This document shows, in pieces, positions 847 to 62,559 of a stretch of 64,000 nucleotides of DNA. The stretch comes from Trypanosoma brucei (Eukaryota). Both the position numbers and the translations under genes were made by a program. Position 1 is the stretch's first letter, and every line of letters starts with the position of its first letter. Location: positions 2,304,001 through 2,368,000 of the forward strand of contig CM000208.1 in NCBI GenBank assembly GCA_000002445.1. The letters are read 5' to 3'. The notes beneath the pieces are model-generated. The model had not been told where the DNA came from. It made no database searches and saw only the letters and a program-made list of their open reading frames with translations.

Positions 847-849
847 GAA

Positions 850-3319: not shown

Positions 3320-3443
3320 CACCAGCGCTTGACCTGTACCATAATATCATGCCCCCTATACGCTGCGTGTCGGCACGCCATTCACCAGGATGTATGAATA
3401 CACTGTGTGTGGAAATCCGTGTTTTATTTCATTTTTAGAAAAG

Positions 3444-7625: not shown

Positions 7626-8228
7626 ATGAGAACGAATAGTCTCAACATCGGAGCAGTTTTGGGGGTGATGTTGGTAGTGGTTGACATTGAAGCACAGGGA
7701 ACAGGTGCCGTGTCCGCGTCGCATTGCACTTTCAACCAGCGCTCCGGTGTTTCTAAGAAGGAAGAGCTAGGGGACGCTATGAAGGTAGATAATGTCTTTC
7801 CAGGAGGCCCTAAAAAAGACGTTTTGGTGTCGTGTGCCAATAAGAGTCGTCAGACAGCGGCAGGGATTTTCGTTCACTGGTGCTGCAGGTGTGAATCAGA
7901 AACCAGTGGCGACAGGGGCAATGTTTGCGAATTTTTTGGAGATTGTGAATGTGATGATATCTATTCAACCTCAAACGTCCCTAAATGCGTTAAAGGAGAC
8001 CACATGTGGAGGGACTCTTCTACTGCGCTGCGGGCGGTTCTTCAGGATGTCAAGGGGAGAGACGCTTGTAACATCTCAACACCTAATGGAAAAGAGATAT
8101 TGATGAAGCTTACGAGAGAAGAGCTCACATCTAATATAGCACCTCAGGATTCGTCCTCCAAAATATTCTTGTTTCTGCTGGCTGCGCTGCTCATGCAGGA
8201 CGAATCTGTGGCACAAACCTCCAATTAG
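7626..8228 (+). CDS. Possible small (200 aa) cysteine-rich type-I membrane or secreted protein.
   Basis: The N-terminus has a signal-peptide-like hydrophobic stretch (IGAVLGVMLVVV). There are 10 Cys, some in clusters (HWCCRCESE, CEFFGDCECDD). There are N-glycosylation sites NKS and NIS. A C-terminal hydrophobic stretch IFLFLLAALLM is followed by a 10-aa polar tail. It is on the same strand as the cluster, with a polyY...AG (gcttttcttag) upstream. No homology is recognised. Confidence 0.35.
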   Translation: MRTNSLNIGAVLGVMLVVVDIEAQGTGAVSASHCTFNQRSGVSKKEELGDAMKVDNVFPGGPKKDVLVSCANKSRQTAAGIFVHWCCRCESETSGDRGNVCEFFGDCECDDIYSTSNVPKCVKGDHMWRDSSTALRAVLQDVKGRDACNISTPNGKEILMKLTREELTSNIAPQDSSSKIFLFLLAALLMQDESVAQTSN

Positions 8229-15872: not shown

Positions 15873-15913
15873 TGTGTCTGTGTGTGTGTGTGTTGGGGGG
15901 GGGGGGGGGGGGG
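15873..15913. repeat. (GT)n microsatellite immediately followed by a 19-nt G homopolymer.
   Basis: The sequence gtgtgtctgtgtgtgtgtgtgtt followed by 19 G lies at 15873-15913. A poly-T tract lies 50 bp downstream. It is about 460 bp upstream of the oxidoreductase gene. Confidence 0.9.
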
Positions 15914-16375
15914 TACGGCCTAGCGGCTGTTTCTGCTACCGAGGTGTGTGACGAAGGCGCCACCCTCCTAGCTTGCCGTGTTGCAGTTTTTTTTTTTTAC
16001 AGCTAGTTGTGGCGGTTCGCCCTCGAGTACCGAGAGACGCAGGTGCATCCCGTGAATATTCGGGTCGTTTAAACTGTTAGCGATCGGTGTCGGGATACGT
16101 GTGCTCCAGTCGGGTTTCGCTCTTTGCGCTTTCGCCCTTTCAGGGCAGCGGGTGCTTTGAGCTCCTGGTAAATGCCACTTTGTCTTTGCTAACATTTTTT
16201 TCGGGTTATCCACTTTATGACGCTTAAGGTTAGTCGTGCTACAGATGATGCCCGTATATGTGTACAATCGCCAATGTTCGCGTCCATGTAGGCGTTGGTG
16301 TTCTTATCTTCCTTACCGTTTATTTACAAGGAGGAGAAAGCAAAGTCTTTTTTTTAAAGCTGACAGCCCACTGGC

Positions 16376-26247: not shown

Positions 26248-26249
26248 GA

Positions 26250-29200: not shown

Positions 29201-30231
29201 CTTCTACGCTGCAGAATATTCAACTCCCACATTTGTCGGTAGTTGTTACGGCATTTTTTTTTTAAAAAAAAGGATTTGTGACTGCAGTGTGATTTTGTGT
29301 TCAACGGTTAACACATTATTGTTATTGCTATCACCGTCTATATATACAAGTTTTTTTTTGTGTGTGTGTATGTGTGCCGCTTATAGTAGTAAATTCTTTT
29401 ACCTTTTCTATTTATTTTCCAGACCCTTTCACATTTCTATTTCTGCATTTTCTTATTAAGAACAAAATAAAATTACTTTGGTGCTTGCTTTACATTCTTT
29501 TTTCTTTTTGTGGTGCTACATTTTGCCTTTGCGTGCGTGATTCTGTAAGGTAATTTCCAGAAATGGTCGGGGTTAAATTGAGCGAACTCGATCCCGAGGA
29601 AGACGGAGGTGAGGTGTTTTTTTTTTTTTTAATCGCAGACTTCATCTTTTGTGTGATGCTTTTGTTGTAGCCATGAAATGACGTCCCACATTACCATTCT
29701 TTTTTGTTTTCACATGATCGGTAGAAGAGGAGAAATCGTTCTTTTTTTTTCCTCTTTTTCACTAAACAGTTTAATTCGGTGGAGGACGAGAGGGTCATAT
29801 ATGTCTTTGTGTATGCGTGTTTTTTTTTTTGTTTCGGAAGGAAGCAAAATCAAAGTAATAAGAGGATAGAAACTTTTCATAGGCAAACAAAGGAATAATA
29901 ATAATAATAATGATAGTAAGAAGGTGAAGGAGCAAAGGGATGCCTTCACCTTCGTTTGTTTGCCGATTTTTCAGTATTCACTCATTCGTTCACTCATTCT
30001 TTTCTTTTTTTTTCTTTTTCGTACCCACACGCCGTTGTCTTTTGCACTGCCATCGTCATCCCTCCGGTGCCTTATTTTTATATTTTTGGCACGCTTCTCC
30101 TAATTGCCCGCTGGTCCATAACCCGTGTTCAACGCTTTATACTTTCAACTGACCTGTTGTTTGTTCTTTTTGTGTGTCATTTGGTTTTGTTTTACTTCTC
30201 TTTTTGTTTTTTTTCTTTTTCTTTGTTTTTT

Positions 30232-30266
<35 letters not shown>

Positions 30267-32785
30267 GAGCGGTAGCGTGGCCACGCGCGGATATGTTGCA
30301 CGGTTCGGTTGGAAATGAGCAGCTGTAATCACTCTGAGAGGTGTTTATTTTTAAAAGGTTCCGGTAAAGTGCGGGCGCCACATAAATGTGGACACTTTGC
30401 GTGGTGCATGTAATTTCTACGTTCCATAAGGGAGACAGGAGAACATGAGCAACGGCTGTGAAGACAGAAGGGAAATCAATAAGCAACAACAGTAGCAACT
30501 AAAAAGAAAGAAGAAAAAAGAAAAGAAAACAGTAGCAATAGAAAAAACAGTAATCCAACTGTGCAAACATTTGTGTGCACTACATTTTTTTTTTTTTGCA
30601 CACCTCGTTTTTTTTTTCTTTCGCGTCTCTTCTTCCATCTTTTTAGCGAATTTTTATTTTTGTTTGGTGAGGAGGGGGAGGGTGAAGTGGACGGGTTCAT
30701 ATGAAGTGGGTAGCAGGGGATGACATGAAGGATGTGGTATTTTTTTTTATATTTTTCATCTTTTCAGTTTAACCACACTTCTGTTTTACTTCTTTGCCTC
30801 CCCCGTTCCTCCCCTTCTTTTACCTTTTCATTTTTTTTAAAGTCTTAAAAAAAATAATCTTTCACTCGCGTGTAGAAGGGTACTGGCGCTTTTTTCTTTA
30901 TTATTGTGAGGGAAATTTTTGTTCTCTTTTCGTTATTTTCCCCTGTTTTTTTTTGTTTCTTTTTGTATCATTTAGATATACTTTTTCAGTGAGTGGTGCC
31001 CCTCTTGTCCTTTTTTTTAAAAAAATTTTGGCCTGCCGACGCACCCCTAAAAAATGTGCTGAATTTCTCCCTTTTTCACTTGAAGACGCACTTCAAAAGG
31101 GGGGAAAAGAAGTGACGGCACTTCGCCAGAGAGTCTCATCACTGAGTTGTGTGTCTATGTATATATTTATCTATTTATTTTCTGCTTGTTTATTAAATAA
31201 ATGAATAAATAAATAAATAAATATATATATATATATTGCGTGTGTTTGTGTGTGTGTGTGTGTGCGTCTACATTTCCTTTCCCTTTTCTCTCTGTATTTA
31301 CTGGTAACATTTCTCGTGCTTATTGCCGAGTTTCAGCCGACGATGCGGCTGCCGCATCCGAGCAATTCAACGTGGTATTGCCGCGTTCCCTTCTTTTTTT
31401 TTTTCCTTTTACCTTTTTTACTCCTTTCCATTTTTTCTTCCTTTTGCAAATTCATCTACGGGGGTTGCGATCCCTTATTTTTGTTCCTCTTCCTTCATTT
31501 TCTCTATTCTTTCCTCTCCGTTATGCTTTTCTTTTTCTTTTTTTTTTCGGTGGCCGCCAGTAGTACCCTTTCGTTTGATTGCCGTAACATTTGTACCGCA
31601 TCGCCCCTACAGTTCCCCGTTTTCTCCTTCACTTTTTTTCTTTTTTCTTTTTTTTTTTTGTTACCCCTCGTGTAACTGCGGGAACTGCTGCTGCATTCCG
31701 TAGTTCACATGTGTTTGGCTCATTTGTTGGCGGGAGCGGCGGCGATGTAACGGCTATCAGTGGGCGTGTGCGTGTGTTGTGTGATTGCGGGGAAAATATT
31801 TGGCTTCGCACATGCGGGGAAGAAATTATTTGACCCGTTATTACTTTAATACCGTCAAGTTGGTAATGGATGTGCAATCGAAGGGAATGAATGCTGATTG
31901 TGAGGGTGCGTGGGATGTGTGTGTGTGTTTTTTTTTTAATTATTGTTGTTGTTTATTTATTTATTTTTCCGAGCATATGTGCCTTTGTTGTATTTCATAC
32001 TTTAATGTTTCTTTAACCACAATCATATACACTTTGGTGTGGTTTTTATTTTCCTCTGTGACCTTGTGGGGCACCTTACCTCATTTTGTTACTCATTTTT
32101 TTCCTTTTCACCGTGCGATCATTTGTATTTACTGTCTGTTGACTTCGATTTTTTTTTCCTTTTTTTTCCTTTTCGTTGGTGGGGACGCACACCAATATCA
32201 TGGGATATTCCATTCATATGTTTTGGTTCCTGTATTAAATGTTTCACTCCTCATGTTTTTTCCTCCCCCCTTCTCGTCATACTTTGCTACGTGATTCCGC
32301 TCTATATATTTCTTGCACTCAATGGGAAGTACTCATTTTCTGTCTCGTATTTTCTTTTTTATTCTTTAAACACCTGTGGCTCTTTGGAAGGTAGTGTTTT
32401 TTTATAGGTGGGTAGGAAGTCCCAGTTGGACTTGTTAACGGTGGGGATTCCGTTTTTTTTTTCTTTTCTTCCCTTTTCTTTTCCCCTTTCATTAGTTAGG
32501 GGGAGAGCGATATATATATATATATATAAATAAATACATATATTTAACCAGAAACTACATATCACGCTTCTCCTTTGTTTTGATTTTAGACGTAGCCGTC
32601 AGTTTCTGAGGACGGGCCAAAAGAAAGGGGAAAAAAGGAAAGAGGGAAACAATCTCTCCTTCCGTACTCGCGCATTCATTTTTTTTCTTTTTTGGACAAT
32701 TGTTTGGTAGAGGCACTCGCTGTTATTACCATTATTATTGTCATTGCCGTTTCAATACCGCCATTCGGCTTGTGTGACTGTGTGA
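26250..32785. repeat. 6.5-kb low-complexity intergenic block that is strongly pyrimidine (T/C) rich on the + strand. It contains (TA)11 at 27622-27643, (AT)n at 29102-29123, (AAT)n at 29894-29913, (GT)15 at 30234-30263, (AAAT)n/(AT)n/(TG)n at 31195-31266, and (TA)n at 32510-32528.
   Basis: Read directly from the sequence. There are many overlapping low-complexity ORFs in all + frames (F/L/S/C-rich), which are not credible proteins. Confidence 0.8.
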
Positions 32786-48570: not shown

Positions 48571-48659
48571 TATATATATATATATATACTTGGTGAGTGG
48601 CTGTGTGTCTGTTCGTATACGTTTGCGTGGCGCAGCGTGGTACAAACATATATATATAT
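48571..48659. repeat. Two (TA)n microsatellites, at 48571-48588 and 48648-48659, flanking the first ATG of the 1860-aa gene.
   Basis: Read directly from the sequence. This suggests the annotated N-terminus (MAVCLFVYVCVAQRGTNIYIYAL) is probably 5' UTR. Confidence 0.7.
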
Positions 48660-51600
48660 GCGCTGATGAATAAGCTGCTTATCACGCTACATGGCTGTCA
48701 TATAATGCATTCCCCGGGTCTCTCGACCGTTTCCCCTCGCGTATTAATAGTGGTGGATGGTGTGTACGAGTTCGTGGCTCACGGGAAAGCTAGCACCTTC
48801 ACATCCTACTTCAACGAGCTTTTCACAGTTGGTTACATTGACCGCTTAACAGTAGTTGAAGTACTTGTATACAATTCGTCAACCACGGGATGTGGAGACT
48901 ACAACGAACAACAGTTGCTTGGGACATGTCGATTATCCACCGTGTGGTTGTTCCAGGGGAAGACACCTAAGCGGCGACGCCATGTTTTGGCGAACGATGC
49001 CGGCATAGCCGGGACAGTTGAGCTCACTTTGATGCTTGACACCTCTAGGGAAGGTAAAGGCAGCTTTGAAGAAGAGACGAACGAGTGGTGTGCCTCGCGT
49101 TTGGTTCGTTTTCTGATGCACAATGATAAGGGCCGTTTGAGGGATGTAGACCTTTTGCTTTCCACAATGGAGACTGATGGAGCACCACTGAGGCCTCTAG
49201 CATCACCCCCAAAATGCGCAGCTGCTTCCTCTGAGAGTTCGCGAAGCTCTTGCGCGGCTTTTGAAGAATTAATGAGGAACCTGTGCGAGGAGTATCACTG
49301 TGAAGAACCTCCGCAGTGTCGGGTCCGGGTTGCTTTGGAAGGTTGTACCTCTCTTGAAGAAAGTGACAAGCACCACTCATCAAATGTAATTGTGGTGTTT
49401 CGGAGTACAGCCGAGGAGTTCGTGTCGCCGTCAAGGCCGTACACGTCTAACCCTGTCTGGGGATCAACGTTGGGTACGGCCACTTTCGACGTCTGTAACC
49501 CGGAGGACTTTGTGCTTGATGTTATTGTGTACCGCATCACTTCGTCATCGGGTTATGTTGAAGTTGGCCGGGCGCGAATACGTGTTTACATGCTCACAAC
49601 GGAATACTCTTCCAAAAGACAATATTTTATTTTCCGCCATGATAGTTACATAACGCCATGTGTTACAGGCGCCGTCCATATCACAATAAAACCGTTGGGG
49701 TTCGGACTGTCACCGAAAGATGCGGGTGGAACCGCCGACTTGTTCCATGCTCGGTTGAATCGTTTTTTTTACCGCTACGATCGTCGGCGACTGCAAGAGG
49801 TGGATATTATTCTCTACTCTCGCAGGAATAAACTGGATGAATTGATGGACGAATTGGAAGTTTACTACGGTCGTGAACCTGGCACGGCAGTACTGTGTTT
49901 GACTGTGGAGGAGGTGCAATCGTTATTGCATGTTGCATCTACGGACCTCGATGGTGAGGATGTAGTAGTTGTGGTCACAATGGGTAGCCAATCGAACCGT
50001 ACAGACGCTAAGCGAGTGACTGCGAACTCTCGAATAGTTTTTGGCAATGCTTTTCAGATTGACGTTGTTCGAGAAACTGATATGATACGGTTTGAAGTAG
50101 TGAAAGCAGGATGTGAGGACGTTGTGTACGGAAGCGTGGATTTTACTTGCCTCAGAATTCAGAAAGGTGTTGAGAATACCCGGACGCTGTATTTGGTAGG
50201 AGCTGCGGGCACAGAGAAGGCATTTCTAAGTGGAACAATAACAGTTACTTTTTTCAGTGAAAATTTGGGCCAGTCGTACACTGCTGATACAGAATCAGAG
50301 TGCATGTATGCAGGGCGTCTGCGTCGCTATGCGTGTCAGCACGCACCAGAAAAACTGCATCTTGTGGACGTGGCGGTTGCTACTGTTTTCGATACTGAGG
50401 GATTCATGAAGGAAATGAGTCGAGATTATGGCGAAGAGAATCCAACTTATGTGCTGTACATGACAGTATTGGGGTGTCGAAAGCTGAGGAAGCGTTTTGG
50501 GTTTACAATGAGTGCGTACGTTGTCGCTCGTATGGGCGTGGACCGCTACGAGACACGTGTAGTGAGAAATAGTACGAAGCCGGACTACTTTGAATTCTTT
50601 GAGTTTTTTATAGATCAGTTCGCGCACACGGAACTCACCCTAGTAGTTATGGATCAGTACGACATGGGTACCGACAAAGAGGTTGGCCGGACTGTCATTC
50701 CCTTGGAAAATGCAATCCCCGAGCATCAGTACAACCTCTGGTTGCCTCTCATGAAGGATGGGTGCTCCAACTGTGGGTTTGTGGGTGTGAAGTTTGTGGT
50801 AAAGGATCTTCAACTTCGCGACTCGTTGTGTGACCACGTCAAAGCAGGAACCTTCTCAGAGCGTTGCGGCCCTAGACAAGAGGAGCTTACATCGCCAAAT
50901 GAGTCACGACGGGCAACAGGTGTTACCAATTTTTCCAACGCGTTATACCACTTGTTTGGTGGGTGGGGCAAGAGAATATTCCGTGCGCCTCGGTGGCAGC
51001 CGTGGCGGGACGAGTCCAGCAAGGGGTTCTCCAAGCTCAAGGTATCTGAAGGGGTTTCGGGCTGTGAGCATGGATCAGATCACCCAGTGCTTGCGAACAT
51101 CATTGACGACGGCATCTACTCTGCAAGTGAGTTCTTGCGACCCAGAACAGCGAGAACGGCACCCAAGTTATTATCAAATCTTCTTGTTAAACAGCGTGCT
51201 CGTCACACCCTCGTCCCGCAAACACCTAACTCTACCACAGGAAGGCGGTTTTTACATGTACACCTCCACTACTGTGACGACTTGGAAGAGAGGCGTTTAG
51301 TTCCTCCAAGCCCATGTGTGATGCTCGCAACGCTCAGGACAACATACATTTCGAGAACAGCGTTCGAAACTTGTTCACCCCGATATGACGATGTGTTTCA
51401 TTTTCCCATCACTTGCCCAGATGAGGACTTTCTTACCATAACAGTCATGACAGACACGCCGTACGGTAGAAAAACTCTTGGGTTCTGTATGCTCTCCATA
51501 AAAAATGTTTGCTATGGCATGCCTCAAACGCGTTACGTAGCGCTGGTGGTCGCCCCTCATGGATCTGTGGCGCAACAACGTGGTGTGGTGTGTCTCTCCC

Positions 51601-54179
51601 TCCTTAGTGAGAATTTCGGTGTTGCCGTACCGCCACCCCTGGGGAGAGAGTGCAGCTTTCGGCAATGGTTGCAAAGCATCCTCGTGAAGTATGCGCCGAC
51701 GGAGCTGCATCGGCTCGAATGGTACGTAGGCGAGTATTCTGTCAAAGACAACAGAGAGGTGGAAGGCTTCTTCGTTACGAACACATACAAGAGGAGGGGG
51801 AAGGAGGAAGTCAATGTCCATATTTCCGTGGAAACGGTATCAAACTTGCATTGCGATGGTTTGGTCGTTGCCTCTGGTTCGTGTTCGATGACGGCGGAGT
51901 TAGGGGGAAGGACGGTCTGCCGTATCCCCGCTGTGGAGGGAAGCAACGGCTTCTTCAACATTTCAGGGGAATTCGATGTTGTCATCCCTCAACCACTAAC
52001 GCAGACACTGCGCCTTCTTGTGAGCGTCAAGGCAGGCTCAAAACGTAGCCACGGAGAATGTGTCATATCATTCGCGGATGTGCACCGCAAGGCAGCTCGT
52101 GGGCAAGCTCACTACATTGTGGAAGGCCCAGGACTCCCGTCGGCCTCCCCCATTGGTTACGTAACCGTCTCAATGTCCTGTGACCGTTGCGGCAGAGTGG
52201 GGACGCCATCAGATTATGCAGATAGGAGTCTATATACGAGGATGCGTGATTACTATTACTATTACATTCGTGAACGACTTCACGTGGTGAACGTCACTTA
52301 CAGCAAGAAAGTTGATGTGGACAACCATCTGAGAAAGCTGGTGGAGGTGTATGGCCCAGAACCCAGCACCCGTCAACTCCATCTAGAAATTGTGCAGTGT
52401 AATTTTCCAGGCATTGCCGACGGTACTCCCTATTTTGCTCTCGAAGTCGGACTCCTGCAGTATAGGACAGTACCTGTCGCCGACAACCCTGACTCCCATT
52501 TCAAAGGGTCATTTGACATTCATCTTGGATTACCCGAAAAGGATGAACTAAACCTGATAGTGTTTATGAGTCGTGCGTGTGAGTTGCTTGATGTGGAGGT
52601 TGGACGAACCTTGATACCCCTCAGGAACGTCGTGTGCGGGAAGAAAATGCTTTTCCGTCTCCCACTCGTGCGACAGGCTCAGACAAAATATGCTAAAATC
52701 CATGGCTCCGTTGAAGTTTTGCTTTACACCAATGATTTTGGTCTCCCGTCCGAGCAGCAGAGGCACGCTCTGCATCACAGCCTTTGCGATCGAGTACAGT
52801 GGGAGGTTTCTCATTCCAACCCAAAGGACATTCATCGGATCCCCAATTTTCTCGCGGGAATACAGGTGCAAAGCGGGTGGGTTAGCGGTCAAATGGAATG
52901 TAGATCGTTACCTCGGCCTGGCTCAGCGTCAGATAACGCAATCCGTGTTCTCTTTCTTGGGTTTCAATGCCTTCCTGAAAAAGGTGTCTACATAAAAGTG
53001 AAGTTGGATGGCTGTAAGAAGCTTCTACGCACAGGCGACCTGTCGGGGAAGCGGCTTGCTTGCGTCAATGAAGAATTCACCATTGAAGGTTCTGCTGTAC
53101 TGAAAAACACAGTTTTTACGTTGAAGTTAGCAGAAAGTAAGACAAATGAATCGCGCGCGTTATGTTACTGCGACTTCACTCTAGCAGATTGTCCCCCTGG
53201 ATGTGTGTCTAGAAAGTGGCTGCGTCTCTTCGACGACAGGGGCAGGTCTATGGGCCAACTAGGCATTCAGGTGGACGCACCAGCTTCCTCAAGCTCATTT
53301 TTCTCTCGCAGCAGCAGCAACCGGTCCCATCACGACGTGGAGCGAGTCACGGATGATGTCGTGTCACTTCTACAAAAGTACTTGCCGCAAGGGCTGCGGC
53401 GACTCGACCTGATAATTAACCATTCCGATAATGTGAGTGCCGTTCATCGTGTGCTTCGCAAGGAACTGGCACCCAAAGTGCAAGCGACAATATACTGCCA
53501 GGTTCAGCAAATCAGATTGCGAACTCCAGCAAGGATATACCCCCGAGTCGAGTTTTCTTCAGCTGACGAGGTTCAATACGTAACGGAGCGCACATACGGG
53601 GAGTGTATGGTGGACTCAAATACGCCATCCCGAAAGAGAGGGGCCGTTTACCTCCACTTTTCTTCAGTCCGTTTGGATGTGAACGGGGCAGATGCGCTGC
53701 GGATTTCTGTTCATGATGGTGAGGCGAGAGAGGGGTGTGAGAAGTTAGGGAGTGTGGTGCTTTCGTTGCGAGCACTTCTAACCCCGACACTGTACGGCAC
53801 AAATGAGATATTGAGGGCGCCGCTTGTCAAACTGTGGCGTACCGGGATTAAAACACGGGCAGTCGTGGCTGGAACCATAACCTTCCACCTTAGTATCCCT
53901 ATTTTTGAGCGGTACCCAGCGGCGCTATGCCTCTCCGAGATCTTTCCGTGCGCTGTGGACCGAGATGTGATACGATGTTATTTCAACAAAATATCTTCAG
54001 TGCTGCGGTGCCACGATACGGGTTCACTCGTGGACATCCACCGCAAGGTGTTTGAGGAGCTTGTCGTGAAACCAAATGGGTCGGTTGAGCTGCGCAACTT
54101 CCTCCACCAATTAGCGGAACGGTGGGGCGTGGACGTGAGTTCTCTTGACGCCACTTCCCCCGACTGGTCGTTTTGTTGA
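48597..54179 (+). CDS. Giant multi-C2-domain protein (about 1838-1860 aa) built from repeated C2 + ~55-aa helical-linker modules. The first ATG at 48597 lies next to a (TA)n microsatellite. The true start may be the ATG at 48666 or one further downstream.
   Basis: Several C2-like beta-sandwich signatures are present (e.g. YVVARMGVDRYETRVVRNSTKPDYFEFFEFFIDQ...LTLVVMDQYDMGTDKEVGRTVIPLEN and VVVVVTMGSQSNRTDAKRVT...). Recurring linker motifs are DFGLPSEQQR, ELHRLEWYVGEY and YGPEP. It is paralogous to the next gene. Confidence 0.85.
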   Translation: MAVCLFVYVCVAQRGTNIYIYALMNKLLITLHGCHIMHSPGLSTVSPRVLIVVDGVYEFVAHGKASTFTSYFNELFTVGYIDRLTVVEVLVYNSSTTGCGDYNEQQLLGTCRLSTVWLFQGKTPKRRRHVLANDAGIAGTVELTLMLDTSREGKGSFEEETNEWCASRLVRFLMHNDKGRLRDVDLLLSTMETDGAPLRPLASPPKCAAASSESSRSSCAAFEELMRNLCEEYHCEEPPQCRVRVALEGCTSLEESDKHHSSNVIVVFRSTAEEFVSPSRPYTSNPVWGSTLGTATFDVCNPEDFVLDVIVYRITSSSGYVEVGRARIRVYMLTTEYSSKRQYFIFRHDSYITPCVTGAVHITIKPLGFGLSPKDAGGTADLFHARLNRFFYRYDRRRLQEVDIILYSRRNKLDELMDELEVYYGREPGTAVLCLTVEEVQSLLHVASTDLDGEDVVVVVTMGSQSNRTDAKRVTANSRIVFGNAFQIDVVRETDMIRFEVVKAGCEDVVYGSVDFTCLRIQKGVENTRTLYLVGAAGTEKAFLSGTITVTFFSENLGQSYTADTESECMYAGRLRRYACQHAPEKLHLVDVAVATVFDTEGFMKEMSRDYGEENPTYVLYMTVLGCRKLRKRFGFTMSAYVVARMGVDRYETRVVRNSTKPDYFEFFEFFIDQFAHTELTLVVMDQYDMGTDKEVGRTVIPLENAIPEHQYNLWLPLMKDGCSNCGFVGVKFVVKDLQLRDSLCDHVKAGTFSERCGPRQEELTSPNESRRATGVTNFSNALYHLFGGWGKRIFRAPRWQPWRDESSKGFSKLKVSEGVSGCEHGSDHPVLANIIDDGIYSASEFLRPRTARTAPKLLSNLLVKQRARHTLVPQTPNSTTGRRFLHVHLHYCDDLEERRLVPPSPCVMLATLRTTYISRTAFETCSPRYDDVFHFPITCPDEDFLTITVMTDTPYGRKTLGFCMLSIKNVCYGMPQTRYVALVVAPHGSVAQQRGVVCLSLLSENFGVAVPPPLGRECSFRQWLQSILVKYAPTELHRLEWYVGEYSVKDNREVEGFFVTNTYKRRGKEEVNVHISVETVSNLHCDGLVVASGSCSMTAELGGRTVCRIPAVEGSNGFFNISGEFDVVIPQPLTQTLRLLVSVKAGSKRSHGECVISFADVHRKAARGQAHYIVEGPGLPSASPIGYVTVSMSCDRCGRVGTPSDYADRSLYTRMRDYYYYYIRERLHVVNVTYSKKVDVDNHLRKLVEVYGPEPSTRQLHLEIVQCNFPGIADGTPYFALEVGLLQYRTVPVADNPDSHFKGSFDIHLGLPEKDELNLIVFMSRACELLDVEVGRTLIPLRNVVCGKKMLFRLPLVRQAQTKYAKIHGSVEVLLYTNDFGLPSEQQRHALHHSLCDRVQWEVSHSNPKDIHRIPNFLAGIQVQSGWVSGQMECRSLPRPGSASDNAIRVLFLGFQCLPEKGVYIKVKLDGCKKLLRTGDLSGKRLACVNEEFTIEGSAVLKNTVFTLKLAESKTNESRALCYCDFTLADCPPGCVSRKWLRLFDDRGRSMGQLGIQVDAPASSSSFFSRSSSNRSHHDVERVTDDVVSLLQKYLPQGLRRLDLIINHSDNVSAVHRVLRKELAPKVQATIYCQVQQIRLRTPARIYPRVEFSSADEVQYVTERTYGECMVDSNTPSRKRGAVYLHFSSVRLDVNGADALRISVHDGEAREGCEKLGSVVLSLRALLTPTLYGTNEILRAPLVKLWRTGIKTRAVVAGTITFHLSIPIFERYPAALCLSEIFPCAVDRDVIRCYFNKISSVLRCHDTGSLVDIHRKVFEELVVKPNGSVELRNFLHQLAERWGVDVSSLDATSPDWSFC

Positions 54180-55656
54180 TGGCGCCGCGCTTTACTGTGA
54201 AAGACTGTTAAGTACATATGTATGTTTATATTGTTTGCAGGGCTCGTGGAACGGTTCGGATGTAAGTGTTTGTGATGTGGTAGTCGTTCGTTTCTGTCAT
54301 GATGTTTAGTAGCGTAAAATAAAGTATTCGTTTATTTATTTGTTGTCCCTTTTTTTAAAAAAAAAATTGTGTAATACCCCTTCTCGCAAAAGTAACGGAA
54401 GAACGGGGCGGTTCTTCCTGAAAGACTGTGAAAATAAAAACAGTACGATACACCGCTGGTGTACAGGGGGAAAGGGGGAAAAAAGGAAAGTCAAGTATGG
54501 TATAGTATTTATTTGTTTGTAGTCTGCTGGCCCCGTGTATTATATGGCAAAACTGAATATAGTGGAACCGTACGTACGGCACTTCGTTCGGTGCCTTTTT
54601 TTTTTTGCGCTGTTTCGTTTATTTGATGCCCTTCATGACTTCTCTTTCCCCCACTGAATCTTACGGTTTTGGCATTACTTACTCGATGGTGGTAACGGGT
54701 TCCGTCATCTTGTCTTTTTATATTTTAAACCTCTTGTTAGCCCGGTTTTCGTTTTTTTCTTTTCTTAAAAAAAAAAAATAATCTAACTCCTGTTTGTGTT
54801 TTTTGGAACAGATCGATGTATGTGGTTGAGGTGTAGAGAGGACAACAGGCACAACAACTTGTGCGATATTACGTGTCGCATGTTAGTTTCCTACCCTTTT
54901 TGTTGCTGTTGTTGTCCTTCACTTCTGTCAGCGGCTTACTTGTTCGTAAAAGTGTCATGGGAGAGGAGAGAGTTCGATTGGAACACTTCCTGATGTGGAA
55001 AACGATTAAGTCTTTTTTCCCCCTTCTGTTCGCTGTGGCTTATTGGTAGACCCCTCATGTGAGCACTTTTATTCTGCTCCCCCTTTGTACTGTTTTCCGT
55101 CTGTGCGAAAACCACTCGTGCCTCTTCTTGTATACTTCGTCATGATACCTTCTTTCTATTTTCTCCTTCTCATTCTTATCATCAATTTACCGTTTCCTTT
55201 CCCCCCTTTTTTTTCGCACTGCCCCCAAAGTGTTCATTTAAACCCCCACTATCACAGTGGTTGTGAACTGAGTGTGTAGAGTGCAGGAGGCGGATAACAA
55301 CAAAAGGGCTCCATCACTGACACTACGCTACCCGCCACCTGTGTTTTGAACGGTACGCACACACATAAGCACACAAGCAGAAAAAGAAAACGAAAAAAGA
55401 AAGGGAGACATTAGGGGTTTCAAAAGGGAGAGTAATTCGAAGAGCAGAGAAGGAAGGGGAACATCACGGCACATATTCCTAGAAGGGCGATTGTTAATAA
55501 TTTGCTCGGACGAGGGAGGGCTACGAGAGGAAGTGAGTGAGACGAACAGAAGTCACATTCTCACTGATAGTGTTGTGCGAGGGTTTTTGTGTTTCAAGAC
55601 AACGAGAATATTGTCCATTTAAGCAGGGTAACACTTCGTCACCCTCGTAGAAATAT

Positions 55657-58600
55657 TTGCAAGTAACCATGAAGGACAGTTATCGCGATCCCAACAGGGC
55701 AAAGAGCTACGCGTCGTCCGCCGATGCCTTTTCTTCTAGTGCGCAACGTTCATGTGCTGTCGGTAGTGCCACCTGGAACGGCTCGCCCTGCGATAATTCG
55801 CCCAGTAGCACATTTATAAGTAGCACCGGAAGAAACACTGGGAAGTTGCATAAGGTGGGGTTTCGGAAAAGAGAAACGACTGCCCCACGTGGTGAAACGC
55901 ATCCGCCGAGGGTCCCAAGAAAGCAGACGCCACCGACTGCGAGGAGCAGGCCGGTGCCCCCTTTGGCGTTGACGCAAACAGGTGCAAGAACAGAACGCGG
56001 TCACAGAATGGATTTGAGGGTACGTGTCGAGGGCGTCAAAAAATTGCTTCCCCCTAATAGCGCATCGAAAGCCCTACCCTCAACCTTCATTATGGTTCAA
56101 ACAGCAACAGGGCGTGGCAAAACGCCGGTAATTTTCAACAACGCTAATCCTCCTTTTAACGACGAGTTCGTGTTTACCGTTAGAGATCCCAAATTAGATG
56201 AAATTACGGTTGTATTAGTCTCGCACACACCATCTGGAAACAAAAAATTGGGACAGTGCGTTCTTTCTCCTGGAAATCTTGTGTGTGGCGAAGAGAAGAG
56301 GCGATGGGTTTCTATTGTCCGCCATCCTGGAACAGATCAAGCTCGCGACTACGCTCCCATGCTACTTAGTATGTATACTGAAGACTTCGGCCTTCGGTGT
56401 GGACCATCAGAAGCGAAAGAAAGTGAATTCCGCGAAAAGCTTCGTGCGCTTCTTAAAAACAACGCACCACGGGAGCTCCACCGTCTCGAGTGGTATGTGG
56501 GAAGTTGCGTAGGTGACTATGATGGTGCTTTTTCTCAGCTGTGCTCAAAGTATCGCAAGTCAAAGGGCACACCTGCGGCGTTTCAGCTTGTCATTAACGC
56601 AGTCTCTGACTTGACCGATGGTAATGGATCACCAAGCGCTTGTGAGACGTGCTGCGTGAAAATTTACGCGGGTCGGGTGAAACGGGTCACCCCAATGGCC
56701 TTGTATCGATCCTCGGCAGTATTTAACGAAGTCTTCAACCTGTCATTAGATGACCCCTTGTCGTCTGGAATAACTCTCTGCGTCTGTTCGCCACGCGGTA
56801 AGATTGGTGAATGCGTTGTCTCTCTGAGAGGGATCCAGAAGGGCGTCGCGAAGGAGCGCACAAATTCTCTTGTTTATGCTGCTGGGACCGGGGATGCAAG
56901 TCTCTGTGGAACCATTTCCTTTACCCTTTACTCACAGACGTTCGGAGTGGAAAATCCCATTGAAGAGGCAGAAGAGAACGCCAGGCGTACTCGGCTGCAG
57001 AACTATCTGTGGAATTATCTCCGAGATGACCTACATCGTCTAGACCCCATTCTATACTCCATCACTGACGTGGATTCCTTCATGAGTGTGTGGACGCGCA
57101 CGTACGGTCCGGAGCCCCGACAACACCTTCTACGGCTCCGAATTAAAAATTTGAGGCTCCTGACCAAACTGAAGAGTCCCGAAGAGTTTACGGTCGTATT
57201 ACGTACAGGACCAAATGCATATCGAACTTCCTGTGTTCGCTACTCACAAGACTTCAGATTCTGTGATGAATTGGTGGTCAGTGTGTGCACTCCATCCGCC
57301 GCCGAGTTCACTTTTATTGTGGTGAAAACATCGGACGTACACGAGGTAGAGATGGGTCGGGCCACCGTGTCCTTTGCAGATATTCCGCAGAGCTCTGTAT
57401 TCAAACGTGATATAATCATCTATGAGGACGCCTTACAGGTCGGCTCCAAAGACTTTGGTACGCTTTTTATTGAGGGGATTACGAACGACTTTGGTCTGCC
57501 GTCGGAAACCTTAACTCCTGAAAGGAGAGAATACTACAGACGACGTGTCGCATCGATTTTGTCCCGCTACAAACCGACTGAGGTATACCGTTGTGACTAC
57601 CTTCTTGGCACCCACTCGGGAATGGAGGAGCAGCTTGTGAGGCGTTTATCAGAGGAGTACGGCCCCGAAACCGGTAACGCGCACGTCAATATCCAAATTT
57701 TGGCAATTAATGACTTCATGCTCTCCTCTCCCTGCTACGTTAAGGTATACGTGGATGACGTTCAGGTACTTAGAACAAAGAGCCACCGCACAGCCCTGAA
57801 TATGCAGTTTGATATATCCCTGAACAACTCCGCAACGCTGCAGATAGAGAATCCCCTCCGCTCGCTACTGAGGTTTGAGTTGATGGAGCCTCGGAGGTTT
57901 CTGCGATCCCGGGTTGTGGGCGTGGCAGAGTTAAGCCTGGTCAAGATGGTACCGAATGAGAAGAATGTGTACCGGCTTCCAGTGTTTAACGCTGAGCGAA
58001 ACGGAGAGGTTGGAACTCTGAGTGTGGAAATAGAATCACCAAGTCTGAGGCACGACGTGTCAGCCATTTTCGACACTCCCCGCGAAGAAGATGACGCCGA
58101 GCTATTCGAAAATGTAATGAAAGATGTAACAACTCTGGTAAGCAAGTACTGCCCTCAGAACTTGCCCCATGTCCAGCCGATGGTGGCCAAGGCAGCGTCA
58201 TTGAGGGATGTCCACCGCGAGCTTAGGGACAAGTTCACACCAAAGCGGGTTGCTTTCACTTTTTACGTACATATTGACAAGCTGGACCTATCGAACCGCG
58301 AGGACATTGAGGCGTATGACGAGGGTCTTATTTCTGTCGAGGCTTACTTCATGAACGAGCGTGTTGTGCAGCCAATGAAGGTAAGTGATGTAAGCAAAGC
58401 AAGGGCGAGTAAGTTGTTTCCCGAAATTCGTTTCGATATCGTTCACCCACACTCATCAGAGCCTGACTGTAGCTTGCCCATACTTGAGATCGTGATGCAC
58501 AAAAAGAACTATAGTACCTTCAAACCCCTTCTAGCTGTTACGAGGCATGGCACTGCTGCTGCAGCGAAACCTCTGAACGTACAAACAACAGAAATGGGCC

Positions 58601-59214
58601 GTGTGGTTCTCTCGGCGCGGGCCCTTCTAACAGAGTGCATGTACTCCCTTGGAGAACCGGTTACTGTAGGTCTTGTCTCTTCAGGGGAACGCGCTCCACA
58701 GGGAGGTACCGTGTTTGGGGACATCGAAAGCTGTCAACGTGCCTACATTGGCGACCTAACGTTGCGCGTGACTGTTCCTTCATTTGAAACCATACCGCGA
58801 TGCTTACAGTTTAGCTCTCACGTCACACGAGATTTTCAACAGGATTACGTCCGTTATCACGCTGACCGAATCTTCAGTCTGTACCGAGCTCACGATCCAT
58901 GGAAGCTGCGTGAATTTTACTACTTGCTCTTCGAGAGGGATGTGGCTTTGGGCAAGTGGCCTCGATCACTACATAATTGGTTGGTAAATTGTATCAAACT
59001 GTATGGACCAGAGGCCCCTGGTACCTATGGACCGCCTCCCAAGCTTCGTTTGGGTTTGAAGGAGTGGGATCAGCAACGAGTCAATAGAACGACGGCGAGT
59101 ACTGCGTGCACATCAAGCGGGTATAACACAGCTCGAGGAAGCAGCTCCGCATTTCCTTCAAACGCATTCAGCGGCAGCGCCAGGCGTTCCCGGAACGGCG
59201 ATCATGGACAGTAG
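55657..59214 (+). CDS. Multi-C2-domain protein (1185 aa), a paralogue of the upstream 1860-aa gene. It has an N-terminal S/R/P-rich disordered region and at least 5 C2-like domains, each followed by a helical linker.
   Basis: The first C2 is MDLRVRVEGVKKL...TFIMVQTATGRGKTPVIFNNANPPFNDEFVFTV...ITVVLVSH. Shared motifs with the upstream gene: ELHRLEWYVGSC, TRTYGPEP, EEYGPETG, NDFGLPSE, TEDFGL. Confidence 0.85.
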   Translation: MQVTMKDSYRDPNRAKSYASSADAFSSSAQRSCAVGSATWNGSPCDNSPSSTFISSTGRNTGKLHKVGFRKRETTAPRGETHPPRVPRKQTPPTARSRPVPPLALTQTGARTERGHRMDLRVRVEGVKKLLPPNSASKALPSTFIMVQTATGRGKTPVIFNNANPPFNDEFVFTVRDPKLDEITVVLVSHTPSGNKKLGQCVLSPGNLVCGEEKRRWVSIVRHPGTDQARDYAPMLLSMYTEDFGLRCGPSEAKESEFREKLRALLKNNAPRELHRLEWYVGSCVGDYDGAFSQLCSKYRKSKGTPAAFQLVINAVSDLTDGNGSPSACETCCVKIYAGRVKRVTPMALYRSSAVFNEVFNLSLDDPLSSGITLCVCSPRGKIGECVVSLRGIQKGVAKERTNSLVYAAGTGDASLCGTISFTLYSQTFGVENPIEEAEENARRTRLQNYLWNYLRDDLHRLDPILYSITDVDSFMSVWTRTYGPEPRQHLLRLRIKNLRLLTKLKSPEEFTVVLRTGPNAYRTSCVRYSQDFRFCDELVVSVCTPSAAEFTFIVVKTSDVHEVEMGRATVSFADIPQSSVFKRDIIIYEDALQVGSKDFGTLFIEGITNDFGLPSETLTPERREYYRRRVASILSRYKPTEVYRCDYLLGTHSGMEEQLVRRLSEEYGPETGNAHVNIQILAINDFMLSSPCYVKVYVDDVQVLRTKSHRTALNMQFDISLNNSATLQIENPLRSLLRFELMEPRRFLRSRVVGVAELSLVKMVPNEKNVYRLPVFNAERNGEVGTLSVEIESPSLRHDVSAIFDTPREEDDAELFENVMKDVTTLVSKYCPQNLPHVQPMVAKAASLRDVHRELRDKFTPKRVAFTFYVHIDKLDLSNREDIEAYDEGLISVEAYFMNERVVQPMKVSDVSKARASKLFPEIRFDIVHPHSSEPDCSLPILEIVMHKKNYSTFKPLLAVTRHGTAAAAKPLNVQTTEMGRVVLSARALLTECMYSLGEPVTVGLVSSGERAPQGGTVFGDIESCQRAYIGDLTLRVTVPSFETIPRCLQFSSHVTRDFQQDYVRYHADRIFSLYRAHDPWKLREFYYLLFERDVALGKWPRSLHNWLVNCIKLYGPEAPGTYGPPPKLRLGLKEWDQQRVNRTTASTACTSSGYNTARGSSSAFPSNAFSGSARRSRNGDHGQ

Positions 59215-60846: not shown

Positions 60847-62559
60847 ATGTATCACTACGAGTACGATGACGACCACTCAACCAACCTCTCGCAAGCAATT
60901 AACGCCAAGTTGATTACGCGTAGGGGTATAACAACAGACAGCCCAGATCCCATTACTCCGGTTTTTTCGTCGACCGCGCCAACTCGCTCATCAACTGGAC
61001 TAACGACTGAATGGATACGACATCAAAAGCTTAGCGGAAGGGCTGTACCCCCGACCCTTGATACTCTAAAGGGGACAGGTAGTGGAAGGAAATACAAGAG
61101 TGTCACAAATTCCCAAGAAAACAATGTGGACCCAAACAGCATTAACCGCGGCACTTTGCTAGTTAACTCATCCTACTCGGCACCTTCACCAAGATATAAC
61201 CACGTCTCTTCAGTGGTAAAAAAGCTGATAGAAGGGAGAATAACGCCCCAAGAGGCGCGTCGTGCAAGTTCCTCTCGTCGTGGCAGCTCACGAACCACCC
61301 GACTGGTTGCCAGTAGCCGATTCGCTCCTGCCGATAGGCCATCAAGCGCCCCGAAACGTCTTCCGATGGGCAGCGGTAGGACTGGTGGGCTGCTGCCACG
61401 TCTAAGAATATCGTCAACACCACACATACCCGTCCGCACGCAGCAATGGATCCCTTCAAACTCAGCAAAACCAGCGACGGCGGAATGCCAAAAAAACATA
61501 TCGCCACGAGGTCCGGCAACCACGCAGTCATCGGGCAGCTCACGAAGGTTAAACATGTATCAAAGGGTGCCACTATCACGACAATGCGACTCTTTTCCGA
61601 GGAAACCAACAACTGTGGAGGAAAAACCGAAGCCCCCTCAGCCATTGTTCAGTCGGGTTCCGAGATGTGCGGCGGATATTCCAGATCATCGGAAGCCCTC
61701 TCCACGACACGATGTACAGTCAAGAAGGCCGTACGTGCCGCAGTCAGGACGTGAGGTACCGAAAGCGCATAAGACACCACTCTCCAGGGCATCCAGTTCG
61801 CCGAAATACAACAGTGCCCGGAGGAGGTACGTGCAGGACAAACAAACCAACGAAACATCTACTATCAGCGGAAGGCAACGAGTTCCTGTGAGTGCAGTAG
61901 ATGTAGGAAGCAGGGAGAAGGCTAACGTCAGCGAAAGGCAACGAGTTCCTGTAAGTGCAGTAGATGTAGGAAGCAGGGAGAAGGCTAACGTCACTGAAAG
62001 GCAACGAGTTCCTGTGAGTGCAGTAGATGTAGGAAGCAGGGAGAAGGCTAACGTCACTGAAAGGCAACGAGTTCCTGTAAGTGCAGTAGATGTAGGAAGC
62101 AGGGAGAAGGCTAACGTCACTGAAAGGCAACGAGTTCCTGTGAGTGCAGTAGATGTAGGAAGCAGGGAGAAGGCTAACGTCAGCGAAAGGCAACGAGTTC
62201 CTGTAAGTGCAGTAGATGTAGGAAGCAGGGAGAAGGCTAACGTCACTGAAAGGCAACGAGTTCCTGTGAGTGCAGTAGATGTAGGAAGTAAGGAGCAAGA
62301 AGACGGACGAGTCACCGCAATTTCTTCGGACTCGAGAGGCGCATTAAGTCAGACAAAGGCGATGGAGACACAAAAAGTCGTCGATCCGTTGTCAACAAAA
62401 GATATAATTTCCCACGACGCGGCTGGTCGTCCCAAACATAAATCTCTTAATGGTGGTTTAGTGATACCACAGGTGGAGGGGATTAAGTCATTACTGCTTT
62501 TTGATATCAAACCACCGAAACTGAGCGAGACTGGCGCTGTTGCCGCCACTGTCGGTTGA
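60847..62559 (+). CDS. S/R/P-rich low-complexity protein (570 aa) containing 6.5 copies of a 21-aa tandem repeat ERQRVPVSAVDVGSREKANV(T/S).
   Basis: It is a + strand ORF whose reading frame is maintained perfectly through the 63-bp repeats. The composition resembles trypanosomatid repetitive proteins. Confidence 0.65.
   Translation: MYHYEYDDDHSTNLSQAINAKLITRRGITTDSPDPITPVFSSTAPTRSSTGLTTEWIRHQKLSGRAVPPTLDTLKGTGSGRKYKSVTNSQENNVDPNSINRGTLLVNSSYSAPSPRYNHVSSVVKKLIEGRITPQEARRASSSRRGSSRTTRLVASSRFAPADRPSSAPKRLPMGSGRTGGLLPRLRISSTPHIPVRTQQWIPSNSAKPATAECQKNISPRGPATTQSSGSSRRLNMYQRVPLSRQCDSFPRKPTTVEEKPKPPQPLFSRVPRCAADIPDHRKPSPRHDVQSRRPYVPQSGREVPKAHKTPLSRASSSPKYNSARRRYVQDKQTNETSTISGRQRVPVSAVDVGSREKANVSERQRVPVSAVDVGSREKANVTERQRVPVSAVDVGSREKANVTERQRVPVSAVDVGSREKANVTERQRVPVSAVDVGSREKANVSERQRVPVSAVDVGSREKANVTERQRVPVSAVDVGSKEQEDGRVTAISSDSRGALSQTKAMETQKVVDPLSTKDIISHDAAGRPKHKSLNGGLVIPQVEGIKSLLLFDIKPPKLSETGAVAATVG
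61870..62295 (+). repeat. Near-perfect 63-bp tandem repeat of about 6.7 units with a strict two-unit (126-bp) higher-order alternation of gtg and gta.
   Basis: The units gaaaggcaacgagttcctgt(g/a)agtgcagtagatgtaggaagcagggagaaggctaacgtca(gc/ct) were read directly from the sequence. The third-position g/a alternates in every unit 1 to 7. Confidence 0.95.

What the first reader, a model, noticed from the sequence alone, without database searches (positions are those of the whole stretch)
48597..59214. Adjacent paralogous giant proteins built from an iterated C2 + helical-linker module with conserved YGPEP and (D/E)(N/D)FGLPSE junction motifs
Both genes (1860 and 1185 aa) are concatenations of C2-like beta-sandwich domains. 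Each C2 is followed by a ~55-aa helical linker with the pattern R..L...L..Y.P..LHRL(E/D)W......(Y/K)YGPEP. Each C2 ends in a (D/E)(N/D)FG(L/V) motif. The 1185-aa protein has at least 5 such units.

The two genes are tandem duplicates that have diverged in length (1860 versus 1185 aa) while keeping junction motifs such as ELHRLEWYVG. I do not recognise this periodic linker as a described domain. It may be a lineage-specific module that rigidly spaces C2 domains, for example in a cytoskeletal, flagellar or membrane-contact scaffold. This is the most distinctive protein architecture in the window.
Basis: partly seen in the sequence, partly recalled or inferred. Interest (0 to 1): 0.7.

Follow-up and report, generated by a model that had tools for sequence, protein, structure and literature searches.

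The report
Paired multi-C2 flagellum-attachment scaffold proteins
Two neighbouring Trypanosoma brucei genes encode long proteins built from repeated C2 domains, each followed by a small three-helix bundle; one is the known flagellum attachment zone protein FAZ22, and the helix bundle belongs to a large family with no match in the Pfam or PDB copies searched.

Summary
The window is Trypanosoma brucei chromosome 10.

- **The two genes.** ORF 55657-59214 is Tb927.10.9700, called FAZ22. It has 1181 aa from its ATG, and TrypTag places it along the whole flagellum attachment zone (FAZ). ORF 48597-54179 is its uncharacterised neighbour, 1837 aa from its ATG. They are ancient paralogues, and the pair is adjacent in Leishmania too.
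- **Architecture.** FAZ22 has 5 units of about 185 aa and its neighbour has 9. Each unit is a C2 beta-sandwich that lacks the Ca2+-binding aspartates. In 13 of the 14 units a three-helix module of about 50 aa follows. AlphaFold2 gives mean pLDDT 80.8 for the five FAZ22 units and 91 for the module alone.
- **The linker.** It is not a C2-specific spacer. A profile of it finds 703 protein clusters. Most carry it as tandem arrays without C2, up to 24 copies separated by Pro/Ala/Ser-rich spacers. It is therefore probably an autonomous domain. It has no Pfam model, no PDB sequence match and no specific fold match.
- **The motifs.** Exact YGPEP occurs once per protein.

Best reading: soluble, segmented scaffold proteins of the flagellum attachment zone. 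This is shown for FAZ22's location only; the mechanism is inferred.

The parts
48666..54179 (+). Gene for the 1837-aa multi-C2 protein (XP_823192.1 / Q38A06; presumably Tb927.10.9690). It has 9 C2 units and 8 three-helix modules. The ORF as listed starts at a GTG at 48597.
55669..59214 (+). Gene for the 1181-aa protein FAZ22 = Tb927.10.9700 (XP_823193.1 / Q38A05). It has a basic disordered N-terminus, 5 C2+module units and a basic tail. The ORF as listed starts at a TTG at 55657.
48666..49316 (+). Long protein, unit 0: C2 (aa 24-152) plus module L0 (aa 153-240). The module is split by a variable insert that is much longer in Leishmania.
49317..50822 (+). Long protein, block C1-L1-C2-L2-C3 (aa 241-742). 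It is an internal duplicate of block C4-L4-C5-L5-C6.
   Evidence: hhalign 99.9%, E 2.7e-31, 477 columns
50823..51245 (+). Long protein, 141-aa poorly conserved basic insert (aa 743-883). It replaces a module after C3 and holds one conserved short motif, ANIIDDGIYSASEF (nt 51093-51134).
51246..54176 (+). Long protein, C-terminal five units C4-L4 to C8-L8 (aa 884-1860). They are colinear with the five units of FAZ22.
55669..56007 (+). FAZ22 N-terminal region of 113 aa. It is rich in Ser/Pro/Thr/Ala/Gly, has net charge +13 and is poorly conserved.
56008..56574 (+). FAZ22 unit 1: C2 (aa 118-247, ends EDFGL) plus module L1 (aa 248-306, ELHRLEWYVG, YGPEP lost).
56575..57123 (+). FAZ22 unit 2: C2 (aa 307-432, ends QTFGV) plus module L2 (aa 433-489, LHRLD...YGPEP).
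57124..57678 (+). FAZ22 unit 3: C2 (aa 490-615, ends NDFGL) plus module L3 (aa 616-674, YGPET). This module is the best match to the profile built only from free-standing modules (iE 3.5e-12).
57679..58251 (+). FAZ22 unit 4: divergent C2 (aa 675-796) plus divergent module L4 (aa 797-865).
58252..59022 (+). FAZ22 unit 5: enlarged beta-sandwich with low-confidence loops (aa 866-1046) plus an extended module L5 (aa 1047-1122, YGPEA).

Best explanation
These are two old paralogous genes of Trypanosoma brucei for soluble, elongated multi-C2 scaffold proteins.

**Shown**
- Each unit of about 185 aa is a C2 beta-sandwich. In 13 of the 14 units a three-helix module of about 50 aa follows.
- The short protein (FAZ22, Tb927.10.9700) has 5 units. 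Its neighbour has 9 C2 units and 8 modules. The neighbour grew by internal duplication of a three-unit block plus one extra N-terminal unit.
- The three-helix module is a diverged copy of a family that mostly occurs elsewhere as C2-free tandem arrays.
- FAZ22 lies along the whole flagellum attachment zone (from the literature).

**Inferred from sequence**
- The C2 domains are probably Ca2+-independent. They have lost the aspartate cluster that binds Ca2+.
- The module probably folds on its own.

**Inferred mechanism (not shown)**
- The alternating sandwiches and helix bundles form a segmented rod. The connectors are short and partly conserved: an FG motif after C2, and YGPEP before the next C2.
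- The rod's many C2 and module faces bind FAZ partners or the inner membrane leaflet.
- The strongly basic disordered ends of FAZ22 would add electrostatic attachment to acidic surfaces such as microtubules or acidic lipids.
For: **Identity**
- Both ORFs are 100% identical to the T. brucei TREU927 proteins.
- The Leishmania orthologue cluster carries GeneDB LmjF.36.4330.
- LmxM.36.4330 is listed as the orthologue of Tb927.10.9700 / FAZ22, 132.58 kDa, 'C2 domain x3'. I computed 132.55 kDa for the 1181-aa product, and Pfam finds 3 C2 stretches.
- TrypTag lists Tb927.10.9700 under 'Whole FAZ'.

**Architecture**
- AF2 of aa 118-1130 gives mean pLDDT 80.8, with five repeats of an 8-strand sandwich plus three helices (two long helices in the first unit).
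- The module alone gives pLDDT 91, with helices at 2-15, 17-29 and 34-44.
- Foldseek matches ferlins (E 6e-20), E-Syt2 and single C2 domains at target TM-score about 0.8.
- hhalign links the C2 units and the modules.
- The three-unit block duplication scores E 2.7e-31.

**No Ca2+ site**
- An alignment to Syt1 C2A shows the five Asp positions not retained in any unit.

**Soluble**
- The maximum 19-residue hydropathy is 1.3-1.5, so there is no transmembrane helix. The termini carry +13 and +6.

**Module distribution**
- The module profile finds 703 clusters, mostly with 50-100 aa spacing in C2-free proteins.
- A profile built only from those free copies finds the window linkers again, with iE 3e-10 and 3.5e-12.

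**Age**
- The gene order SET-long-short is conserved in Leishmania.
Against: - No coordinates or PAE were available, and pTM is only 0.46. Rigidity and the packing of module on C2 are untested.
- No binding partner, lipid binding or phenotype is known from the sources I could read. The primary FAZ22 paper (Zhou et al. 2018, JBC) is not held.
- The C2 domains are near neutral in charge, which does not favour strong electrostatic membrane binding.
- The long paralogue has no localisation data in what I could search, so 'FAZ scaffold' may not apply to it.
Confidence: 0.6

Rival explanations
1. The three-helix modules are the working parts. They would be a multivalent binder of a repetitive lattice, such as the FAZ filament or the microtubule quartet. 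The degenerate C2 sandwiches would mainly space them out.
For: - In most family members the module occurs alone, in arrays of up to 22-24 copies joined by flexible Pro/Ala/Ser-rich spacers. That layout is typical of multivalent lattice binders.
- The three array proteins I inspected have C-terminal tails that look coiled-coil-like (rich in E/K/R/Q/L; an impression, not a prediction), and one also has a PH domain. Among 53 further members, 3 match PH and 1 matches Katanin con80.
- The C2 units have lost their Ca2+ ligands.
Against: - The modules inside the C2 proteins are much more diverged from the family consensus than the free copies: 8-35 bits against the free-copy profile. Several (L4, L6, L7) have lost the YGPEP or G-x-E features. 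That argues against a conserved shared ligand.
- No binding data exist.
Confidence: 0.25
2. These are Ca2+-triggered membrane tethering or fusion proteins of the ferlin, extended-synaptotagmin or MCTP type.
For: - The best structural matches of the five-unit model are otoferlin, dysferlin, myoferlin and E-Syt2 C2A-C2B.
- A distant relative, P0100, keeps canonical DPYV and MDYD..DD Ca2+-type motifs in alternate C2 units.
Against: - There is no transmembrane segment.
- Pfam finds no SMP, FerI, FerA, FerB or DysF domain, only C2.
- The Ca2+-ligand aspartates are absent in all 14 units.
- The Foldseek whole-chain TM-scores are 0.1-0.19, so the similarity lies in the C2 domains only.
Confidence: 0.08
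3. One reading: the linker is a module particular to these C2 proteins, evolved to hold successive C2 domains at a fixed spacing.
For: - The unit period is very regular: 183-190 aa in FAZ22 and 184-190 aa for most units of the long protein.
- Connector lengths are indel-free across orthologues for L1, L2, L5, and FAZ22 L2 and L4.
Against: - The same module is found in 703 clusters and mostly without C2.
- It is predicted to fold alone with pLDDT 91.
- YGPEP is conserved even where a disordered spacer follows. It therefore belongs to the module and is not a C2 junction.
Confidence: 0.07

Closest known systems
FAZ22 / Tb927.10.9700 of Trypanosoma brucei (Zhou et al. 2018 JBC, as cited in PMC10953051; TrypTag 'Whole FAZ', PMC9981465)
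   Same: It is this gene. The sequence is identical to the TREU927 protein, the orthologue mapping runs through LmjF/LmxM.36.4330, and the mass (132.55 vs 132.58 kDa) and the 'C2 x3' annotation match.
   Different: The literature I could read describes it only as a FAZ protein with three C2 domains. The five-unit architecture, the three-helix modules and the paralogous neighbour are not mentioned.
Ferlins (otoferlin, dysferlin, myoferlin)
   Same: They have many C2 domains in one chain with helical elements between some of them. They are the best Foldseek matches (E 6e-20 to 4e-16).
   Different: The window proteins have no C-terminal transmembrane anchor, no FerI/FerA/FerB/DysF domains and no Ca2+ ligands. 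They have a regular three-helix module after nearly every C2. Whole-chain TM-score is only 0.1-0.19.
Extended synaptotagmins, tricalbins and MCTPs
   Same: They carry tandem C2 domains. E-Syt2 C2A-C2B matches at E 3e-12.
   Different: The window proteins have no SMP domain and no transmembrane hairpin or region.
CC2D (Tb927.4.2080), the coiled-coil and C2 domain protein of the T. brucei FAZ
   Same: It is a FAZ protein with a C2 domain, and TrypTag lists it in the same 'Whole FAZ' class.
   Different: [quoted passage not shown]
Small three-helix bundles (CUE/UBA, protein A domain, MLLE)

Membership tests
C2 domain (Pfam PF00168) | Sequence match above Pfam's gathering score | tested here: met
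   124.4 bits and 86 bits against a cut-off of 22; 4 and 3 stretches.
C2 domain (Pfam PF00168) | Eight-stranded antiparallel beta-sandwich fold | tested here: met
   The AF2 model has five sandwiches of about 8 strands. Target TM-score is 0.75-0.81 to solved single C2 domains. The units Pfam misses are linked to the others by hhalign.
Ca2+-binding C2 domains (synaptotagmin/PKC type) | Cluster of five aspartates in loops 1 and 3 (Syt1 D172, D178, D230, D232, D238) | tested here: not met
   MAFFT alignment of the 14 units with Syt1 C2A: at most one or two of the five positions hold Asp in any unit. Loop alignment is uncertain and the Syt1 sequence is from memory.
Ferlin | C-terminal transmembrane anchor | tested here: not met
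   Maximum 19-residue Kyte-Doolittle mean is 1.33 and 1.55, both inside beta strands.
Ferlin | FerI, FerA, FerB or DysF domains between C2 domains | tested here: not met
   The Pfam scan at E<=1 returns only C2, plus a sub-threshold C2_GDE1 hit.
Extended synaptotagmin / tricalbin | SMP lipid-transfer domain and N-terminal membrane hairpin | tested here: not met
   No SMP match and no hydrophobic segment.
Flagellum attachment zone proteins of T. brucei | Localisation to the FAZ by tagging | not testable with these tools
   Taken from the literature for Tb927.10.9700 only. Nothing was found for the long paralogue.
Three-helix 'YGPEP' module family (defined here; no Pfam entry) | Match to a profile built only from free-standing copies in other proteins | tested here: met
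   Profile A2 hits window linkers L1 (iE 3.1e-10), L2 (3.4e-5) and L5 (1.7e-5) of the long protein, and L3 (3.5e-12), L2 (1.1e-4) and L1 (1.2e-3) of FAZ22. L0, L4, L6, L7 and L8 of the long protein and L4 and L5 of FAZ22 (hits there have iE >= 0.17) are linked only through hhalign among the linkers.
Three-helix 'YGPEP' module family (defined here; no Pfam entry) | Three-helix fold predicted for the isolated segment | tested here: met
   AF2 gives pLDDT 91 and pTM 0.72, with three helices. The same helix pattern follows four of the five C2 sandwiches in the long model; the first linker is modelled as two long helices.
UBA / CUE domains | Significant sequence or fold match | tested here: not met

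The most novel reading that the evidence does not exclude
The 'linker' would be an undescribed, autonomously folding three-helix domain family. Its consensus is R-x-R-L-x-R-F-Y-x-x-Y-x-P-x-K-L-x-x-V-D-x-x-L-x-x-Y-x-G-x-E-x-x-L-x-x-x-L-V-x-K-Y-G-P-E-P. It is seen in kinetoplastids and may span Euglenozoa. It is used in arrays of up to 24 copies as a multivalent binder of cytoskeletal lattices. The FAZ22 family would be a special case in which the module was interleaved with C2 domains to build a segmented FAZ scaffold.
Probability: 0.3. Interest if true: 0.6.

Novelty: new variant of a known kind. Interest (0 to 1): 0.4.

Why it matters
The flagellum attachment zone determines trypanosome cell shape and division, and most of its roughly 100 listed proteins have no recognisable domains.

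- FAZ22 turns out to be a five-unit C2 plus three-helix chain rather than 'three C2 domains'.
- It has an uncharacterised 9-unit paralogue next door, which gives a concrete structural hypothesis and an obvious second candidate gene to tag.
- The three-helix module deserves a family entry of its own. It has 703 clusters, up to 24 copies per protein, and no Pfam or PDB counterpart. Annotating it would label many 'hypothetical' kinetoplastid proteins.

The genes themselves are already annotated, and nothing here overturns current understanding.

Tried and rejected
- **BLASTP self-comparison of each protein.** It gave no off-diagonal hits, because the repeats are too diverged for pairwise BLAST. 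Profile-profile comparison of orthologue alignments was needed.
- **The search for homologous proteins with the 95-copy module alignment.** It returned one hit from 73 candidates. The word index fails on a 51-aa profile, so I obtained no names or taxa for the 703 clusters.
- **The listing of cluster members on ten top hits.** Only two carried organism names, both prokinetoplastids. The rest are metagenomic. The taxonomic range beyond Kinetoplastea stays open.
- **Foldseek afdb50.** The library was not installed.
- **Literature searches.** Searches for Q38A05/Q38A06, the YGPEP motif and Tb927.10.9700/9690 in main texts found nothing relevant. The primary FAZ22 paper PMC6200942 is not held.
- **Pfam hits on module arrays.** Myb_DNA-binding, PA28_N, UBA_6, Surp and others all have zero significant stretches. 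They are sums of many weak partial matches, and single modules give no hit, so I rejected them.
- **Ferlin or E-Syt membership.** Rejected on missing defining features.
- **N-myristoylation of the long protein.** Orthologues start MGK..., but the T. brucei protein starts MNK, so I dropped the idea.
Full report
**What is there**

The region holds two + strand ORFs, 48597-54179 (1860 codons, GTG start) and 55657-59214 (1185 codons, TTG start). Both are 100% identical to Trypanosoma brucei brucei TREU927 proteins that begin at internal ATGs:
- XP_823192.1 / Q38A06, 1837 aa, from nt 48666.
- XP_823193.1 / Q38A05, 1181 aa, from nt 55669.

The window is therefore T. brucei chromosome 10. All long ORFs lie on the + strand. 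They include a zinc-type alcohol dehydrogenase-family protein, an LRR protein, a WD40 protein, a protein kinase, a HAT/TPR protein, a PH-Arf protein and a SET-domain protein.

**Identity of the genes**

- The Leishmania orthologue clusters carry the GeneDB tags LmjF.36.4320 (long) and LmjF.36.4330 (short).
- Two papers name LmxM.36.4330 as the orthologue of T. brucei FAZ22.
[quoted passage not shown] I compute 132.55 kDa for the 1181-aa product, and Pfam gives three C2 stretches.
- The TrypTag supplement lists Tb927.10.9700 under 'Whole FAZ'.
- The long protein is presumably Tb927.10.9690. I found no localisation or any mention of it.

**Paralogy and age**

- BLASTP of the two proteins gives 24% identity over about 1000 aa, E 8e-65. 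The short protein is colinear with aa 904-1844 of the long one.
- Both have orthologues in every trypanosomatid sampled.
- In Leishmania donovani the 2193-aa and 1625-aa orthologues are adjacent on the same strand. On a metagenomic contig carrying close homologues the order SET / 2213 aa / 1681 aa matches the window.
- The duplication therefore predates the Trypanosoma-Leishmania split.

**Unit structure**

I aligned each protein with eight orthologues and cut out putative units.
- The C2 parts of units 0-6 of the long protein and 1-3 of the short one are mutually related at mostly 84-100% hhalign probability. The N-terminal unit C0 is tied in mainly through C1 (93%).
- The last two units of each protein pair with each other (95% and 99%) and only weakly with the rest (81-86%).
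- AlphaFold2 on aa 118-1130 of the short protein (16-sequence alignment) gives mean pLDDT 80.8. It shows five repeats of an eight-strand sandwich followed by three helices (two long helices in the first unit). The fifth sandwich is enlarged by low-confidence loops.
- Foldseek against the PDB returns ferlins (E 6e-20), E-Syt2 C2A-C2B (3e-12) and single C2 domains at target TM-score 0.75-0.81.
- The period is 183-190 aa.
- The long protein is C0 + [C1-C3] + 141-aa insert + [C4-C6] + C7 + C8. The two three-unit blocks align at 99.9%, E 2.7e-31 over 477 columns, so they are an internal block duplication.

**Ca2+ sites and membrane anchors**

- Aligned with synaptotagmin-1 C2A (sequence from memory), none of the 14 units keeps the five-aspartate Ca2+ site.
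- A distant multi-C2+module relative, P0100, does keep DPYV and MDYD..DD motifs in alternate units. Loss in the trypanosomatid proteins looks secondary.
- Neither protein has a hydrophobic segment compatible with a transmembrane helix.
- The C2 units are near neutral in charge. FAZ22 has a disordered N-terminus of net charge +13 and a tail of +6.
- Pfam finds nothing but C2.

**The linker**

- Thirteen linker segments fit one pattern, and profile-profile comparison joins them. Non-orthologous pairs reach 93-98%, with E down to 1e-12.
- A 42-sequence alignment of the five best-preserved linker types (A1) folds on its own in AlphaFold2 with pLDDT 91 as three helices.
- Searched against 1.84 billion representative proteins, this profile finds 703 proteins at E<=1e-3 and 80 at E<=1e-30. 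The best have 22-24 copies and score far above the T. brucei protein itself.
- In the 145 best hits I located 819 copies. Most are 50-100 aa apart, as tandem arrays separated by Pro/Ala/Ser-rich spacers. About ten proteins, besides orthologues of the window genes, have the spacing of about 185 aa seen in the C2+module architecture.
- A second profile, built only from 95 diverse free copies (A2), finds the window linkers again. Scores are iE 3.1e-10 and 3.5e-12 for the two best, and 1e-3 to 1e-5 for four more. It finds nothing else in the window.
- The linker is therefore a diverged copy of a small domain that probably folds on its own. The conserved YGPEP is the C-terminal end of that domain, kept even when a disordered spacer follows. 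It is not a C2 junction.

**Is the module known?**

- Pfam-A (2025 copy) has no model. Arrays give only zero-stretch summed artefacts, and single modules give nothing.
- PDB sequences give no real match to either profile.
- A text search for the motif found nothing relevant.
- Of ten top clusters looked up, two carry organism names: Apiculatamorpha spiralis and Papus ankaliazontas, both Prokinetoplastina. The rest are metagenomic.
- The wider taxonomic range could not be established.

- Exact YGPEP occurs once per protein. Variants or loss are the rule.
- A literal (D/E)(N/D)FG(L/V) occurs once per protein. Looser xxFG(L/V) or LG variants end 3 of 5 C2 units in FAZ22 and 4 of 9 in the long protein; unit C5 reads CGR in T. 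brucei but NFG in the orthologues. A similar FG motif recurs in the relative P0100, so it is a family feature.
- ELHRLEWYVG marks one orthologous linker pair only.
- No module follows C3 of the long protein.

**Mechanism**

- Shown: the domain architecture, the paralogy, the loss of Ca2+ ligands, the absence of membrane anchors, and (from the literature) the whole-FAZ location of FAZ22.
- Inferred: the alternating sandwiches and bundles, joined by short connectors that are indel-free across orthologues for most units, form a segmented rod. This rod would serve as a scaffold in the FAZ, with the basic tails aiding attachment.
- Main rival: the modules are the binding elements and the C2 units are the spacers. 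The array architecture of most family members favours this. The strong divergence of the C2-embedded copies counts against it.
- A ferlin- or E-Syt-like Ca2+-triggered membrane role is unlikely.
- Rigidity could not be tested, because no coordinates or PAE are returned and pTM is 0.46.

**Verdict**

One of them is already placed at the FAZ. The added value is threefold:
- the full five- and nine-unit architecture;
- the uncharacterised paralogue;
- the recognition that the 'linker' belongs to a large family of three-helix modules with no match in Pfam or the PDB.

Interest is moderate.

Noticed in passing
window 1-4625: At least three and a half tandem copies of a 1291-nt unit (96-97% identical between the first copies). 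Each carries an ORF of about 390-425 aa for a protein with an N-terminal basic stretch and one hydrophobic helix, which looks like a type II membrane protein. There is no Pfam match. The gaps between ORFs are very short, and the fourth copy (3390-4625) is diverged.
   Followed up: partly
window 4626-16375 and 26248-32785: These two long stretches hold no ORF of 220 aa or more on either strand. GC skew turns negative at about 10-16 kb, and GC falls to 0.39 at 28-32 kb. No Rfam family matches anywhere in the window.
   Followed up: partly
window 61872-62295 (in ORF 60847-62559): A 63-bp tandem repeat of 6.7 copies at 96% identity. It encodes a 21-aa repeat, ERQRVPVSAVDVGSREKANVT, in a Ser/Pro/Arg-rich 570-aa protein with no real Pfam match.
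   Followed up: no
window 51093-51134 (aa 833-846 of the long protein): A short motif, ANIIDDGIYSASEF, is conserved across trypanosomatids (LNLMDEGIHTVDEF, LNIIDESIHSIDEF, INLMDGGIGSVEEF). It sits inside an otherwise poorly conserved 141-aa basic insert and may be a linear binding motif.
   Followed up: no
window 59023-59070 (after the last module of FAZ22) and orthologues P0002-P0016: A conserved tail, (F/Y)GPPPKL(P)FDPEE, follows the last module. Orthologues of the long protein show a similar Pro-rich ending after their last module.
   Followed up: no
P0100 (1921 aa, from the representative search; organism unknown): A distant relative with seven C2+module units. Canonical Ca2+-type C2 domains (GLDPYIRV, VMDYD..DDD) alternate with degenerate ones. 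This suggests an ancestral two-unit repeat and secondary loss of Ca2+ sites in trypanosomatids.
   Followed up: partly
L001 1-24878 (Leishmania donovani LR812656.1) and alignments: Leishmania orthologues are 300-450 aa longer than the T. brucei proteins. The extra length sits at a few fixed sites: inside module L0, after C3, after C6 of the long protein, and inside the fifth sandwich of the short one. The unit cores are untouched.
   Followed up: no
PMC10295485 (literature): The Leishmania mexicana FAZ22 orthologue LmxM.36.4330 was one of six proteins specifically co-immunoprecipitated with the flagellar kinase Fused/STK36. The authors regard the interaction as unconfirmed.
   Followed up: no
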